Assembly: GCA_035540495.1 (NCBI GenBank)
Contig: DATLGL010000004.1
Coordinates: forward strand, 568 to 64,567
Direction: 5' to 3'
DNA length: 64,000 nt
Source: Acidimicrobiales bacterium
GTDB taxonomy: Bacteria; Actinomycetota; Acidimicrobiia; Acidimicrobiales; CADCTF01
The position numbers were made by a program, and so were the translations under genes. Shown piece after piece: positions 9,887 to 12,932 of this stretch (the stretch's first letter is position 1; each line of letters starts with the position of its first letter). A model generated the notes under the pieces. The model was not told the DNA's origin, searched no databases, and saw only the letters and a list, made by a program, of their open reading frames with translations.

Positions 9887-10360
9887 GTGGCTGACGGTGG
9901 CGTCCGCTTCAGGCTGGCGGGTGAGCTCCCGCGGGAAGCGCTGATGGCGATGCGTGAAGGGACGACCGTCGACGCTTGTGACGCTCGGCTATCGAACGCC
10001 GTGGCTGGAGCGAGCGAGTGGCTCGTGGTTGTGGATGGCACGAGGCCAGAGGGCTGGCTGCTCATCGAGTGGAACGGGAAGCCCTCGAAGCCCGATCACC
10101 CCGACATCGCGGATGTCTTTGTCCGCGAGGGGGCAAGGGGCAGAGGCCTCGGCACGCTCTTGGTGCTCGAGGCGGAGCGCCGCGTCCGTGAGCGCGGGCA
10201 TTCGCGAGTCGGCCTTTCGGTCAACCCGGAAGAGAACGTTGCTGCGCGGCGCCTCTACGAGCGCCTCGGGTACCACCACGACGGAGGAGAGCCATACCTC
10301 GATGGTGTCTACGACGGTGTCGAGGACTGGGTGATCGACCTTGTAAAGGATCTGGGATAG
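9887..10360 (+). CDS. GNAT acetyltransferase
   Basis: VFVREGARGRGLGTLL acetyl-CoA motif, ARRLYERLGY; start reassigned to GTG 9887. Confidence 0.88.
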   Translation: MADGGVRFRLAGELPREALMAMREGTTVDACDARLSNAVAGASEWLVVVDGTRPEGWLLIEWNGKPSKPDHPDIADVFVREGARGRGLGTLLVLEAERRVRERGHSRVGLSVNPEENVAARRLYERLGYHHDGGEPYLDGVYDGVEDWVIDLVKDLG

Positions 10361-10472
10361 GACACGTCACCGGGCGGCATGACCTCGGGCTCCGCGCATC
10401 CGTCGCCCCAGCTCCCGTCCCTCCGCGCGAAATGAACGTGCAGGCGCCTTTGTCGTCGCCGAAGCTGGCGGG

Positions 10473-10814
10473 ATGATCCCCGGTCCGGCTGGTCCGCACG
10501 TCATCACGCAGTTGCTCCGCTGGCTGAAGGACAAGTGGCCCGAGCCACGGCAGTGTGCGATATGCGACGCCGACAACTGGAGCTACGGGCACTTCATCCA
10601 AGAGAGCATCCAGTTGCTCGATGACTTGGCTCTTGAAGACCTCGTCGACAACCCCGATGATGCGCAACCGGCCGTTACTGCCTACTGCGCCGCTACGTGC
10701 CTCACGTGCGCCCACACGATCTTCTTCAACGCTCACCTCATCGGCGTCATCAGCACGGTGCAGGTTGAGCAGCGCTCCGGCCGAGTGCGCGTGCAGGCCC
10801 TCACCACGAGCTGA
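10473..10814 (+). CDS. Hypothetical Zn-ribbon-like protein; stop codon overlaps the IS110 left junction
   Basis: CAIC and CLTC pairs; TGA 10812-10814 spans the IS junction. Confidence 0.55.
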   Translation: MIPGPAGPHVITQLLRWLKDKWPEPRQCAICDADNWSYGHFIQESIQLLDDLALEDLVDNPDDAQPAVTAYCAATCLTCAHTIFFNAHLIGVISTVQVEQRSGRVRVQALTTS

Positions 10815-11120
10815 CGGACGGTTGACTGCAGCGCATCGGACGACCATATCGACAGTGATAATCCACCAGTAGCGGTTCCCCGCCACGTAGAAGGTTGGCG
10901 GCGCCCCGCTCACTCGGTCTGACTCGCATATCGACCGACTCCGTCTGGATGTCCTTGAGCCGATCGGTCGGCCGAGTGAGCAGGACGCCGCCGGCACAAC
11001 CGGTCGGTCGAACGTGACCTGATAGGAGCTCGTGCGAGGAGCCCCGTCACTGTCCTGTCCGTCTTCGCGGCCGTGCGTGCCACCCACGACCAGCCAACGA
11101 GAAGGGATGGCGAGAACACG
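10813..11120 (+). ncRNA. Candidate IS110 bridge RNA
   Basis: Stems 10909-10918/10971-10980 and 10932-10938/10964-10970; ATAGGAGCT (11022-11030) equals the element right end (12206-12214); CCGTCA (11044-11049) complements the left end TGACGG. Confidence 0.65.
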
Positions 11121-12200
11121 ATGTCAGATCCGTCGCGCTCGATCACCGGAGGCGTCGACACCCACAAGGACTTCTACGTTGCCGCCGCGATCGACGGGCT
11201 CGGCCGCATCCTCGGCACCGAGCAGTTCCCCACGACGCCACGCGGCTATCGCCGGCTACTGCGCTGGCTGCGCCGCTTCGGGGACGTCGTCGCTGTCGGC
11301 GTTGAGGGCACCGGCGCGTGGGGCGCTGGTCTTGCGCGCTACCTGACGGCCGAGGGCGTGCGGGTGGTGGAGGTCGACCGCCCGAACCGCCAGCGGCGTA
11401 GGCGGCGCGGCAAGTCCGATCCCGCCGATGCCGAGGCCGCCGCTCGAGCAGTGCTGGCGGGCGATCAGACCGGAACCCCGAAGGCCGCGACCGGCATGGT
11501 CGAGGCGATTCGCCTGGTGCGCGTCGCCCGCCGCAGCGCCATGAAGGCCCGCACGCAGGCAGCAAACCAGATCCACTCGGTGATCGACACTGCGCCGGAG
11601 GAGCTGCGCGGCCAGCTGCTCGGACTTCGCGAGAACGAGAGGATCGCCAAATGCTCGCGCCTGCGCGCCACCGATCCGACGACGCCAGCCGGTGCTGCGA
11701 AGCTGACCCTCTCGACACTCGCTCGGCGGTGGCTGGCCCTCAGTGATGAGATCAAGACGCTCGACGCCCAGCTCGAGCGGCTGGTCGAGGCCACGGCTCC
11801 CTCGCTCGTCGCCGCGAAGGGAATCGGCACCGAGACAGCGTCGATGTTGCTCACCACCGCCGGCGACAACCCCGGCCGGCTCAGCAGCGAGCGGTCGTTC
11901 GCCGCCGTCTGCGGATCATCACCCGTCGATGCGTCCTCCGGCAGGCAACAGCGCCACCGTCTCAACCGCGGCGGCGACCGGCAAGCGAACTGTGCGCTCT
12001 ACCTGATCGTCTTGAACCGGCTGTCGTGGGACCCGAGGACGAAGGCCTACATGCAACGACGACTCGCGGAGGGGAAGACGAAGAAGGAAGTCATCCGCTG
12101 CCTCAAGCGCTACGTCGCACGCGAGGTCTACAACCTCATCGCCAAGGACCTTGCGGGGCGTTCCGAAGCCGCGCAGCGACGTGTTCAACTCGCTGCTTGA
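11121..12200 (+). CDS. IS110-family transposase/recombinase
   Basis: GGVDTHKD, VGVEGTG, GKSDPADAEAAA, SSG...RHRLNRGGDRQAN. Confidence 0.96.
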   Translation: MSDPSRSITGGVDTHKDFYVAAAIDGLGRILGTEQFPTTPRGYRRLLRWLRRFGDVVAVGVEGTGAWGAGLARYLTAEGVRVVEVDRPNRQRRRRRGKSDPADAEAAARAVLAGDQTGTPKAATGMVEAIRLVRVARRSAMKARTQAANQIHSVIDTAPEELRGQLLGLRENERIAKCSRLRATDPTTPAGAAKLTLSTLARRWLALSDEIKTLDAQLERLVEATAPSLVAAKGIGTETASMLLTTAGDNPGRLSSERSFAAVCGSSPVDASSGRQQRHRLNRGGDRQANCALYLIVLNRLSWDPRTKAYMQRRLAEGKTKKEVIRCLKRYVAREVYNLIAKDLAGRSEAAQRRVQLAA

Positions 12201-12269
12201 CACCTATAGGAGCTTCGGCTCGGCGTGCGCGATCTCGCGACCGAACGCCTGGCCTGATTCGGCGCAGCG

Positions 12270-12932
12270 CTACTGCGTCGCCAGATCGAGGACCGCCAGG
12301 CATGGTCCCAGGCCGAGGATCTCGATGTCGTTGCGGCGGTGTGCCTCCCACATCTCCCTGGTCATTACGTACCGATGCATGAGCGCCATGCCGCTGGGGC
12401 GCGCAGCGAGCATGGTTCCGTTCGGCTGGTAGCCGAGCGAGCGTGACACGCCGTTTGACTCAACGTTGTCAGCGAACGCTTCGCTCTCCGCTCGCAGAGC
12501 ACCCAGCCCCCCAAACGCGAGGTGGAGAACCGCCGATCGCATCTCCTTGCCGATTCCTTTGCCGTGGTGTTCGAGCAACAGCACGGAGAACGAGCTGACG
12601 GTGCGCAACACCTTGAAGCTGTCGGCGGTGATGTTCTGCTGTCCGACGACGACGCCGTCCACCAGGACCGCGAACGACAGGTGCCACCACTCCGGAGACG
12701 TGCGGGAGCGAGCGCGCCACTCGCCCGTGAGCGCGGCCCACTCCGCCTTCGGGGAAACCATGTAGAACGACGACTCACCGTCGACCCACTCGTAGCCCGC
12801 GCGCGCGACGTCTCTGCTTCGAAAGCGCGCGAGCTCGCTCAGGAGGCCGTCGTCGGCGTATCGCAGGGTGACCGCCGGGGTCCGGACTTCGAGGTTGAAG
12901 AAGGGCCAAACGTTGACGTCTGTCTCTGTCAC
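12270..12932 (-). CDS. RimJ/RimL-type GNAT acetyltransferase
   Basis: HHGKGIGKEMRSAVLHLAF, ADNVESNGVSRSLGY; start reassigned to GTG 12932. Confidence 0.88.
   Translation of the reverse strand: MTETDVNVWPFFNLEVRTPAVTLRYADDGLLSELARFRSRDVARAGYEWVDGESSFYMVSPKAEWAALTGEWRARSRTSPEWWHLSFAVLVDGVVVGQQNITADSFKVLRTVSSFSVLLLEHHGKGIGKEMRSAVLHLAFGGLGALRAESEAFADNVESNGVSRSLGYQPNGTMLAARPSGMALMHRYVMTREMWEAHRRNDIEILGLGPCLAVLDLATQ

What the first reader, a model, noticed from the sequence alone, without database searches (positions are those of the whole stretch)
10808..12221. IS110 with readable bridge-RNA guide segments
Seen: both junctions share GAGCT, so the inferred circle junction (donor) is ATAGGAG-CT-GACGG and the inferred target is CACGAG-CT-TCGGCTC. 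The 5' non-coding end contains ATAGGAGCT (11022-11030, equals donor left plus core), CCGTCA (11044-11049, complements donor right) and GAGCCGA (10957-10963, complements the right target flank 12215-12221). The last lies in a loop closed by stems 10932-10938/10964-10970 and 10909-10918/10971-10980. The expected left-target guide (ACTCCGTCT, 10938-10946) ends in CT but does not match the left flank well. Established: IS110 recombinases use a bispecific bridge RNA from the non-coding end. Inference: this is a natural actinobacterial bridge system; the left mismatch suggests relaxed targeting or later rearrangement.
Basis: partly seen in the sequence, partly recalled or inferred. Interest (0 to 1): 0.62.

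Follow-up and report, generated by a model that had tools for sequence, protein, structure and literature searches.

The report
IS110 element with bridge RNA

Summary
Window 10851-12216 is a 1366-bp IS110-family insertion sequence. It has a 270-nt left end that encodes a two-loop bridge RNA, a 359-aa DEDD/Ser recombinase (11121-12200) and a 16-nt right end.

It was wrong about the left end. Eleven related elements lose homology sharply at 10848-50, not at 10813. This moves four things:
- The core is T-C (10849-50 and 12215-16), not CT.
- The left target guide is CATATC(GAC) at 10927-35, identical to the left junction at 10845-53.
- The right donor guide is TCACTGTC (11047-54), the complement of the element's first eight bases.

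No relaxed targeting or rearrangement is needed, because the target CATA-TC-GGCTC matches the guides 11/11.

Across about 21 distinct related elements the guides covary with the flanks (0 of 20,000 permutations reach the observed match) and the stems covary. A model built from these RNAs hits 17 of 121 genomes of the phylum. This is a new member of a known kind.

The parts
10808..10844 (+). It is intergenic sequence after the stop (10812-14) of ORF 10473-10814.
   Evidence: No similarity to the C36 copy or to ten related elements; homology starts at 10848-50.
10845..10850 (+). Left target arm CATA (10845-48) plus core T-C (10849-50) at the left junction.
   Evidence: Identical to RNA-coding segment 10927-32. 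The same relation holds in relatives with different flanks.
10851..10858 (+). First bases of the element (right donor arm, GACAGTGA).
   Evidence: Start of family-wide homology. Complementary to 11047-54, with compensatory changes in relatives (GACTGTGA, GCCAGTGA, GCCAATGA, each matched exactly).
10857..10862 (+). -10-like hexamer GATAAT in the left end. It is conserved as GA(T/G)(A/G)AT.
   Evidence: Promoter function is inferred by analogy with IS621 only. Spacing to the -35-like box in the reconstructed circle would be 20 bp.
10897..10992 (+). Target-binding-loop domain of the bridge RNA. Stems: 10897-903/10986-92, 10908-19/10970-81, GAC 10921-23/GTC 10967-69.
   Evidence: RNAalifold consensus and pair counts: 89% of cells paired against 32-46% when slid, with 12 of the 22 pairs in these two helices changed on both sides.
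10927..10935 (+). Left target guide CATA + core TC + 3-nt extension GAC, which equals the first bases of the element.
   Evidence: Equals left junction 10845-53 (9/9). Chance 3e-4. Covaries with the flank in relatives.
10937..10953 (+). Variable hairpin inside the target loop (GAC-TCC-GTCT-GGA-T-GTC).
   Evidence: The closing GAC/GTC is conserved, while the inner stem varies in sequence and length in relatives.
10957..10963 (+). Right target guide GAGCC + core complement GA.
   Evidence: Reverse complement TCGGCTC = 12215-21 (7/7). The guide changes with the flank in relatives.
10993..11081 (+). Donor-binding-loop domain. Basal stem GGCAC 10993-97/GTGCC 11077-81. Closing stem CG 11013-14 + GAC 11016-18 / GTC 11057-59 + CG 11060-61. 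Inner hairpin GCTC 11028-31/GAGC 11039-42.
   Evidence: The inner hairpin shows GCTC/GAGC to GCCT/AGGC compensatory changes.
11022..11030 (+). Left donor guide ATAGGAGCT.
   Evidence: Equals right end 12206-14 (9/9). An 8-9 nt identity between this segment and the right end is seen in 25 of 28 related loci and 6 nt in one more.
11047..11054 (+). Right donor guide TCACTGTC.
   Evidence: Reverse complement = 10851-58 (8/8). Exact in every window-type relative despite four sequence variants.
11121..12200 (+). IS110-family recombinase, 359 aa, intact.
   Evidence: Pfam DEDD_Tnp_IS110 8e-23 and Transposase_20 2e-15. NCBIfam NF033542 'IS110 family RNA-guided transposase', 186 bits against a cut-off of 140. 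Distant match to the ISCro4 and IS621 structures. Family-invariant D13, E62, D100, D103, S272-S273 present.
12197..12202 (+). -35-like TTGACA in the right end, overlapping the stop codon.
   Evidence: Present at a fixed distance from the right end in about 55 of the related loci. Function inferred.
12206..12216 (+). Left donor arm ATAGGAGCT (12206-14) plus core T-C (12215-16). This is the right end of the element.
   Evidence: The right end ...GAGC(A/T)TC is conserved across the family, and short repeat-collapsed contigs end there.
12217..12221 (+). Right target arm GGCTC (flank).
   Evidence: Complementary to 10957-61.

Best explanation
Window 10851-12216 is a complete IS110-group insertion sequence. 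It lies in the spacer between two convergent genes: ORF 10473-10814 on the plus strand and a GNAT acetyltransferase on the minus strand ending at 12270.

The 270-nt left end encodes a roughly 190-220 nt bridge RNA with two loop domains.
- In the target loop, the 5' side (CATA-TC, 10927-32) has the sequence of the top strand of the left target arm plus core, so it would pair with the bottom strand. The 3' side (GAGCC-GA, 10957-63) is complementary to the top strand of core plus right target arm.
- In the donor loop, ATAGGAGCT (11022-30) equals the last bases of the element. TCACTGTC (11047-54) is complementary to its first bases.

The recombinase (11121-12200) would bind this RNA, bring the circularised element's RE-LE junction (...ATAGGAGCT-TC-GACAGTGA...) together with a target CATA-TC-GGCTC, and exchange strands next to the C.

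Shown here: the boundaries, the four sequence relations, their covariation in relatives, the RNA stems, and the recombinase family. Inferred from IS621/ISCro4 work: that the RNA is made, is bound by the recombinase and guides recombination; that a junction promoter drives it; and where the strands are cut.
For: - Boundaries: homology with the C36 copy (83% identical) and ten elements from other genomes begins at 10848-50 and ends at ...GAGC(A/T)TC. Multi-copy genomes confirm the equivalent ends.
- Guides in the window: 9/9, 7/7, 9/9 and 8/8 matches, with chance frequencies 3e-4, 0.03, 4.5e-4 and 2e-3.
- Covariation, one insertion per distinct guide set: left flank against left guide 73/105 matches, against 40.1 +/- 4.8 when guides are re-dealt (21 sets). 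Right flank against right guide 61/95, against 36.1 +/- 3.8 (19 sets). In both, 0 of 20,000 permutations reach the observed value.
- The right donor guide tracks four variants of the element's first bases exactly.
- Three copies of one element in one MAG all sit at CAGA-TC-GC(T/A)TC, as their guides specify.
- RNA stems: 89.3% of cells paired against 32-46% for slid partners, covariation score 0.348 against at most 0.13, 0 of 500 shuffles. The single-sequence fold has z = -2.8.
- Protein: Pfam and NCBIfam IS110 models above their cut-offs, and distant matches to the ISCro4 and IS621 structures.
- Architecture and pairing rules agree with those published for IS621 (PMC11208160, PMC11208158).
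Against: - There is no direct evidence that the RNA is expressed or that the element is active.
- No empty site was found in 13 genomes of the family, so the pre-insertion sequence is reconstructed, not observed.
- The donor loop does not visibly pair with the core. The RNA reads CG after ATAGGAGCT and CU after TCACTGTC.
- The -35-like and -10-like boxes would be 20 bp apart in the circle, longer than a canonical sigma-70 spacer.
- This copy has T at 12214 where most relatives have A. The RNA base expected to 'shake hands' with it (U10964) is complementary to A.
- Only one copy of this exact element exists, and the genome has no free exact target.
Confidence: 0.9

Rival explanations
1. One reading: the element starts at 10813, the core is CT, the donor is ATAGGAG-CT-GACGG, and a left guide at 10938-46 no longer matches its flank because of relaxed targeting or rearrangement.
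For: GAGCT occurs at both proposed junctions, and CCGTCA (11044-49) complements TGACGG at 10812-17.
Against: No related element shares 10813-10847. The proposed left guide is a hairpin that varies in length in relatives. With the end at 10851 all four guides match perfectly, which leaves nothing to explain.
Confidence: 0.02
2. The complementarities are not DNA guides. They are intramolecular RNA structure or recombinase-binding repeats. For example, 11047-54 might pair with 10851-58 within a read-through transcript, and the 10927-35 repeat of the left junction might be a subterminal repeat.
For: Covariation alone cannot tell RNA-RNA pairing from RNA-DNA pairing for the pair 10851-58 / 11047-54, because both lie in the left end.
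Against: - The left guide and right guide covary with DNA outside the element, which differs between copies of the same element.
- The left donor guide matches a segment 1.2 kb away, beyond the gene.
- The layout reproduces the experimentally solved IS621 scheme position for position.
Confidence: 0.05
3. The architecture is that of a bridge system, but this particular copy is no longer mobile. It would be a fixed relic with a weakened handshake position and no available target.
For: Single copy. There are 0 free exact targets and 21 one-mismatch sites in the 4.07-Mb assembly. T at 12214 against the family's A. The sister copy on C36 is already destroyed by another insertion.
Against: The ORF is intact with all family-invariant residues. 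The guides match the flanks 11/11, so there has been no drift since insertion. Several relatives also carry GCTTC at the right end.
Confidence: 0.25

Closest known systems
IS621 / IS622 / ISCro4 bridge recombinase systems (IS110 group of the IS110 family; Durrant et al. 2024 PMC11208160; Hiraizumi et al. 2024 PMC11208158)
   Same: - DEDD RuvC-like domain plus serine Tnp domain recombinase.
- Long left end encoding the RNA upstream of the gene, and a very short right end.
- RNA with a target loop followed by a donor loop, each split by a hairpin.
- Left guides have the top-strand sequence, and right guides are reverse complements.
- The core is covered by both target guides.
- RNA bases 3' of the right target guide are complementary to the last base(s) of the left donor arm in most relatives (handshake position).
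- There is a -35-like box in the right end and a -10-like box in the left end.
   Different: - The protein is only distantly related (E about 1e-10 to the solved structures).
- The donor core is T-C rather than C-T, and the invariant base is the second one (C).
- The left target arm is short (4-5 nt against 7), so the target is about 11 nt.
- No visible pairing of the donor loop with the core.
- The putative junction promoter has a 20-bp spacer.
- GC-rich actinomycetotal host.
- Nothing has been tested experimentally.
IS1111-group elements with seekRNA encoded in the right end
   Same: Same recombinase family and RNA-guided logic.
   Different: In those elements the RNA lies downstream of the gene in a long right end. 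Here the right end is 16 nt and the RNA is upstream.
Classical actinobacterial IS110-family members (IS110, IS116, IS117, IS900, IS1547; recalled from the literature, not compared here)
   Same: Same family. No terminal inverted repeats, no target duplication, site-specific insertion.
   Different: The nearest relatives found are unnamed copies in Acidimicrobiia MAGs and in Streptomyces, Kitasatospora, Pseudonocardia and Frankia genomes.

Membership tests
IS110-group bridge-RNA insertion sequence | Recombinase with an N-terminal DEDD RuvC-like domain and a C-terminal Tnp domain carrying the catalytic serine | tested here: met
   PF01548 8e-23 and PF02371 2e-15. NF033542, 186 bits against a cut-off of 140. 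D13, E62, D100, D103 and S272/S273 are invariant in 25 homologues. Matches the ISCro4 and IS621 chains.
IS110-group bridge-RNA insertion sequence | Long non-coding left end upstream of the gene, short right end, no terminal inverted repeats | tested here: met
   Left end 10851-11120 = 270 nt. Right end 12201-12216 = 16 nt. The first 12 nt against the reverse complement of the last 12 nt agree at 4/12 (read).
IS110-group bridge-RNA insertion sequence | Structured RNA with two internal-loop domains, supported by covariation | tested here: met
   34 pairs in 5 helices. 89.3% of cells paired against 32-46% when slid. 16 pairs changed on both sides. 0 of 500 shuffles reach the covariation score. 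RNAalifold agrees.
IS110-group bridge-RNA insertion sequence | Target loop: the 5' guide equals the left flank plus core, the 3' guide complements core plus right flank, and both covary with the flanks | tested here: met
   Window 6/6 and 7/7. Family permutation tests give 0 of 20,000 for both. Copies of one element share the target that their guides specify.
IS110-group bridge-RNA insertion sequence | Donor loop: the 5' guide equals the right end and the 3' guide complements the left end | tested here: met
   Window 9/9 and 8/8. An 8-9 nt identity between guide and right end is seen in 25 of 28 loci and 6 nt in one more. The right donor guide is exact through four variants.
IS110-group bridge-RNA insertion sequence | [quoted passage not shown] | tested here: inconclusive
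   Included in both target guides (TC at 10931-32, GA at 10962-63). Not evident in the donor loop (CG after the left donor guide, CU after the right donor guide).
IS110-group bridge-RNA insertion sequence | The same core dinucleotide at both junctions | tested here: met
   TC at 10849-50 and 12215-16 in the window. Across the family only the C is constant. The first position is T at every right junction (27/27) but follows the left guide at the left junction.
IS110-group bridge-RNA insertion sequence | A promoter is rebuilt at the RE-LE junction of the circle (-35 in the right end, -10 in the left end) | tested here: inconclusive
   TTGACA (12197-202) and GATAAT (10857-62) are conserved in relatives, but they would be 20 bp apart in the circle. 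No transcript data.
IS110-group bridge-RNA insertion sequence | The RNA is expressed, is bound by the recombinase and is required for recombination | not testable with these tools
No wet-lab data.
IS110-group bridge-RNA insertion sequence | Match to a curated bridge-RNA covariance model | not testable with these tools
   Rfam 15 gave no relevant hit at E up to 10. Whether it holds a bridge-RNA family at all was not established. A model built here (R1) finds the window at 188.6 bits, the sister copy at 177.5 bits and 17 of 121 genomes of the phylum.
IS1111-group seekRNA element | Guide RNA encoded in a long right end downstream of the recombinase gene | tested here: not met
   The right end is 16 nt, and the structured RNA lies upstream of the gene.

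The most novel reading that the evidence does not exclude
Across this actinomycetotal subfamily, donor and target share only one nucleotide (the C). The position before it is always T at the right junction (27/27). At the left junction it takes whatever the left target guide specifies, and it is not T in 16 of 29 insertions. If strand exchange is staggered by two bases as in IS621, such mismatched cores should leave both outcomes after replication. Only the top-strand outcome is seen. Natural insertions of this subfamily would then be a footprint of single-strand (top-strand) transfer, the copy-and-paste model proposed for IS621 in a 2026 preprint (10.64898/2026.08.31.748434). Otherwise this subfamily cuts with a different stagger.
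Probability: 0.3. Interest if true: 0.5.

Novelty: new member of a known kind. Interest (0 to 1): 0.25.

Why it matters
It adds a cleanly annotated natural bridge-RNA element from a GC-rich actinomycetotal lineage, with all four guides, the core, the target and the RNA stems placed by comparative evidence. This RNA type is common: a model of it hits 17 of 121 evenly drawn genomes of the phylum. For genome annotation, the corrected boundary matters. The element interrupts no gene, and its flank mismatch was an artefact of a misplaced end. For bridge-recombinase engineering it offers a distant orthologue with a short (about 11-nt) natural target and a T-C core. None of this changes what is known about the mechanism.

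Tried and rejected
- Rfam scan of 10300-12700 at E up to 10 gave only chance hits (mir-341, snoU83B, hammerhead II) and no bridge-RNA family.
- I searched 13 genomes of the same family for an empty site, using the two flanks joined. Only the GNAT gene matched, at about 74% identity, and nothing spanned the joint.
- I tested whether the target lies in a hairpin, as for some IS110 members. The reconstructed site folds no better than shuffles (z = 0.06), so I dropped this.
- I considered C-G (10850-51 / 12216-17) as the core, because left and right junctions agree there in 13 of 14 close relatives. I rejected it in favour of T-C. In the wider family the base after the C always follows the right-hand arm (T in the element, variable in the flank). 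The C is the only invariant base, and in IS621 the second core base is the invariant one and the cut lies after it.
- A first version of the right-junction parser misread four loci, which only weakened the statistics. It is corrected.

Full report
**What is there**

Window 11121-12200 (+) encodes a 359-aa protein. It matches Pfam DEDD_Tnp_IS110 (8e-23) and Transposase_20 (2e-15). It also matches the NCBIfam equivalog NF033542, 'IS110 family RNA-guided transposase', at 186 bits against a cut-off of 140. It matches the solved ISCro4 and IS621 recombinases only distantly (E 5.5e-11 and 9e-10). The residues expected for the DEDD/Ser active site (D13, E62, D100, D103, S272/S273) are invariant in an alignment with 24 homologues of 63-92% identity. 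Rfam 15 has nothing that matches the non-coding end.

**Where the element ends**

The assembly holds a second copy, 83% identical, on contig C36. Its 3' part continues on C2. A protein-pattern scan of one genome per species returned 80 related loci. Most are from Acidimicrobiia MAGs, and others are from Streptomyces, Kitasatospora, Pseudonocardia and Frankia.

- **Left end.** I aligned the left ends of the window, the C36 copy and the eight closest loci that retain a left end. The two further loci with this end type were read off. Homology starts abruptly at window 10848-50 (..AT-C-GACAGTGATAAT), and nothing upstream is shared.
- **Right end.** On the right the family ends at ...TTGACA-N8-GAGC(A/T)-T-C. 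Several repeat-collapsed contigs stop exactly there.
- **Multi-copy genomes.** Genomes with several copies confirm the same ends.

The GAGCT shared by 'both junctions' is a chance 5-mer. The element is 10851-12216 (1366 bp counting one core copy). It sits 36 bp after the stop of ORF 10473-10814 and about 50 bp after the stop of a minus-strand GNAT gene (12270). It lies between convergent genes and interrupts neither.

**The guides, re-read** (coordinates checked against the ruler)

- The left junction is CATA-TC-GACAGTGA (10845-58).
- The right junction is ATAGGAGCT-TC-GGCTC (12206-21).

| Segment in the left end | Coordinates | What it matches | Match |
|---|---|---|---|
| CATATCGAC | 10927-35 | left junction 10845-53 | 9/9 |
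| GAGCCGA | 10957-63 | reverse complement of 12215-21 | 7/7 |
| ATAGGAGCT | 11022-30 | right end 12206-14 | 9/9 |
| TCACTGTC | 11047-54 | reverse complement of the element's first eight bases, 10851-58 | 8/8 |

In 20,000 shuffles of the left end these strings turn up with frequency 3e-4, 0.03, 4.5e-4 and 2e-3. The published rule for IS621 is that left guides carry the top-strand sequence, right guides are reverse complements, and the target guides include the core (PMC11208160). All of this is reproduced here. Its RDG (CCGTCA) and LTG (ACTCCGTCT) were not. The latter is the small variable hairpin that splits the target loop (GAC 10937-39 / GTC 10951-53).

**Covariation**

I extracted junctions and guides from 29 insertions, which carry 21 distinct guide sets.

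- **Left arm.** The five bases before the core match the guide at 73 of 105 positions, against 40.1 +/- 4.8 when guides are re-dealt among elements.
- **Right arm.** The five bases after the core match at 61 of 95 positions (19 sets with a right junction), against 36.1 +/- 3.8.
- In both tests, none of 20,000 permutations reaches the observed value.
- **Examples.** The window has CATA-TC with guide CATATC, and the C36 copy has CAGA-TC with guide CAGATC. On the right, the window has GGCTC with guide GAGCC. The C36 copy has GGTGC with guide GAACC, a 4 of 5 match in which one base of the guide changes together with the flank.
- **One element, three sites.** Three copies of one element in one MAG all lie at CAGA-TC-GC(T/A)TC, as their guides say.
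- **Right donor guide.** It follows four different versions of the element's first bases exactly (GACAGTGA, GACTGTGA, GCCAGTGA, GCCAATGA).
- **Left donor guide.** It shares 8-9 identical bases with the right end in 25 of 28 loci and 6 bases in one more.

**RNA structure**

I aligned 21 distinct left ends. RNAalifold gives the long target-loop stem and a donor-loop closing stem. A hand-drawn model of five helices (34 pairs) has 89.3% of cells paired against 32-46% for partners slid by 1-3 columns. Its covariation score is 0.348 against at most 0.13, and 0 of 500 shuffles reach it. A basal stem (GGCAC 10993-97 / GTGCC 11077-81, longer in relatives) encloses the donor loop. The single sequence 10866-11085 folds into the same two domains with z = -2.8. 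Its stem 10932-38/10964-70 is not kept in relatives.

A covariance model built from the alignment finds three places in the genome: the window (188.6 bits), the C36 copy (177.5 bits) and part of a third, 65%-identical element on C63. It gives matches in 17 of 121 genomes drawn evenly from the phylum, nearly all of them full-length. This RNA type is therefore common.

**The core**

In the window the two junctions share T-C-G. Across the family only the C is constant at both junctions.

- The base before the C is T at every right junction (27/27). At the left junction it follows the left guide.
- The base after the C belongs to the right-hand arm.
- In IS621 the second core base is the invariant one and the top strands are cut just after it (PMC11208158).

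By analogy I place the core at T-C (10849-50, 12215-16). Where the strands are actually cut is not shown.

**How it most likely works**

This part is inferred from the IS621 and ISCro4 work. The element circularises, which joins ...ATAGGAGCT-TC-GACAGTGA.... The RNA is transcribed from the left end. The recombinase tetramer holds the donor junction on the donor loop and a CATA-TC-GGCTC site on the target loop, and exchanges strands. The conserved TTGACA in the right end and GATAAT in the left end look like the split promoter described for IS621. They would be 20 bp apart in the circle, so this step is weak.

**Weak points**

- There is no expression or activity evidence.
- No empty site was found in relatives.
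- There is no visible donor-loop pairing with the core.
- This copy has T at 12214 where most relatives have A, opposite the RNA's handshake base.
- The genome has no free exact target, and 21 sites with one mismatch.

**Verdict**

This is a real, intact, correctly classed IS110 bridge-RNA element. The 'left mismatch' was an artefact of a misplaced boundary. It is a new member of a known kind and of modest interest. The one thing worth a specialist's second look is the family-wide asymmetry of the first core position, described under the novel case.

Noticed in passing
L017, L019, L021, L023, L036, L040, L043-L048, L080, L081, L089 junctions (table); window 10849 and 12215: The first core position is T at all 27 right junctions. 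At left junctions it equals the left target guide, and it is not T in 16 of 29 insertions. Donor and target therefore share only the following C. With a 2-nt stagger and random segregation, both outcomes would be expected.
   Followed up: partly
G000 contig C36:1-140 and contig C2:1-200 (loci L002, L004): The second copy of the IS110 element (83% identical) is split by another insertion sequence. That element has TGAACCGCCCTGGG... / ...CCCAGGGCGGTTCA inverted ends and a 3-bp duplication (CGC), which looks IS3-like. The assembly breaks inside it.
   Followed up: partly
G000 contig C63:26526-27744 (L003, L101) and C1:2307-3308: Two more IS110-family genes are in the genome, with 55% and 31% protein identity. 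The first has a partial match to the bridge-RNA model (28 bits, target-loop part only).
   Followed up: no
window 10473-10814 (+): A 113-aa ORF with no Pfam or NCBIfam match but two CxxC pairs (CAIC, CLTC), which looks like a small zinc ribbon. It ends 36 bp before the insertion and is not interrupted by it.
   Followed up: no
window 12214: This copy has T where most relatives have A (GAGC-A-TC). The RNA base 3' of the right target guide (U10964) is complementary to A, so the handshake pairing described for IS621 would be lost in this copy. L016, L017, L019, L020 and L050 share the T.
   Followed up: partly
L058, L059, L061, L062 (one Acidimicrobiaceae MAG): The repeated unit that carries the related recombinase and bridge RNA is about 2.69 kb, roughly twice the usual length. 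It extends about 1.16 kb upstream of the gene. This is either a larger composite element or a nested one.
   Followed up: no
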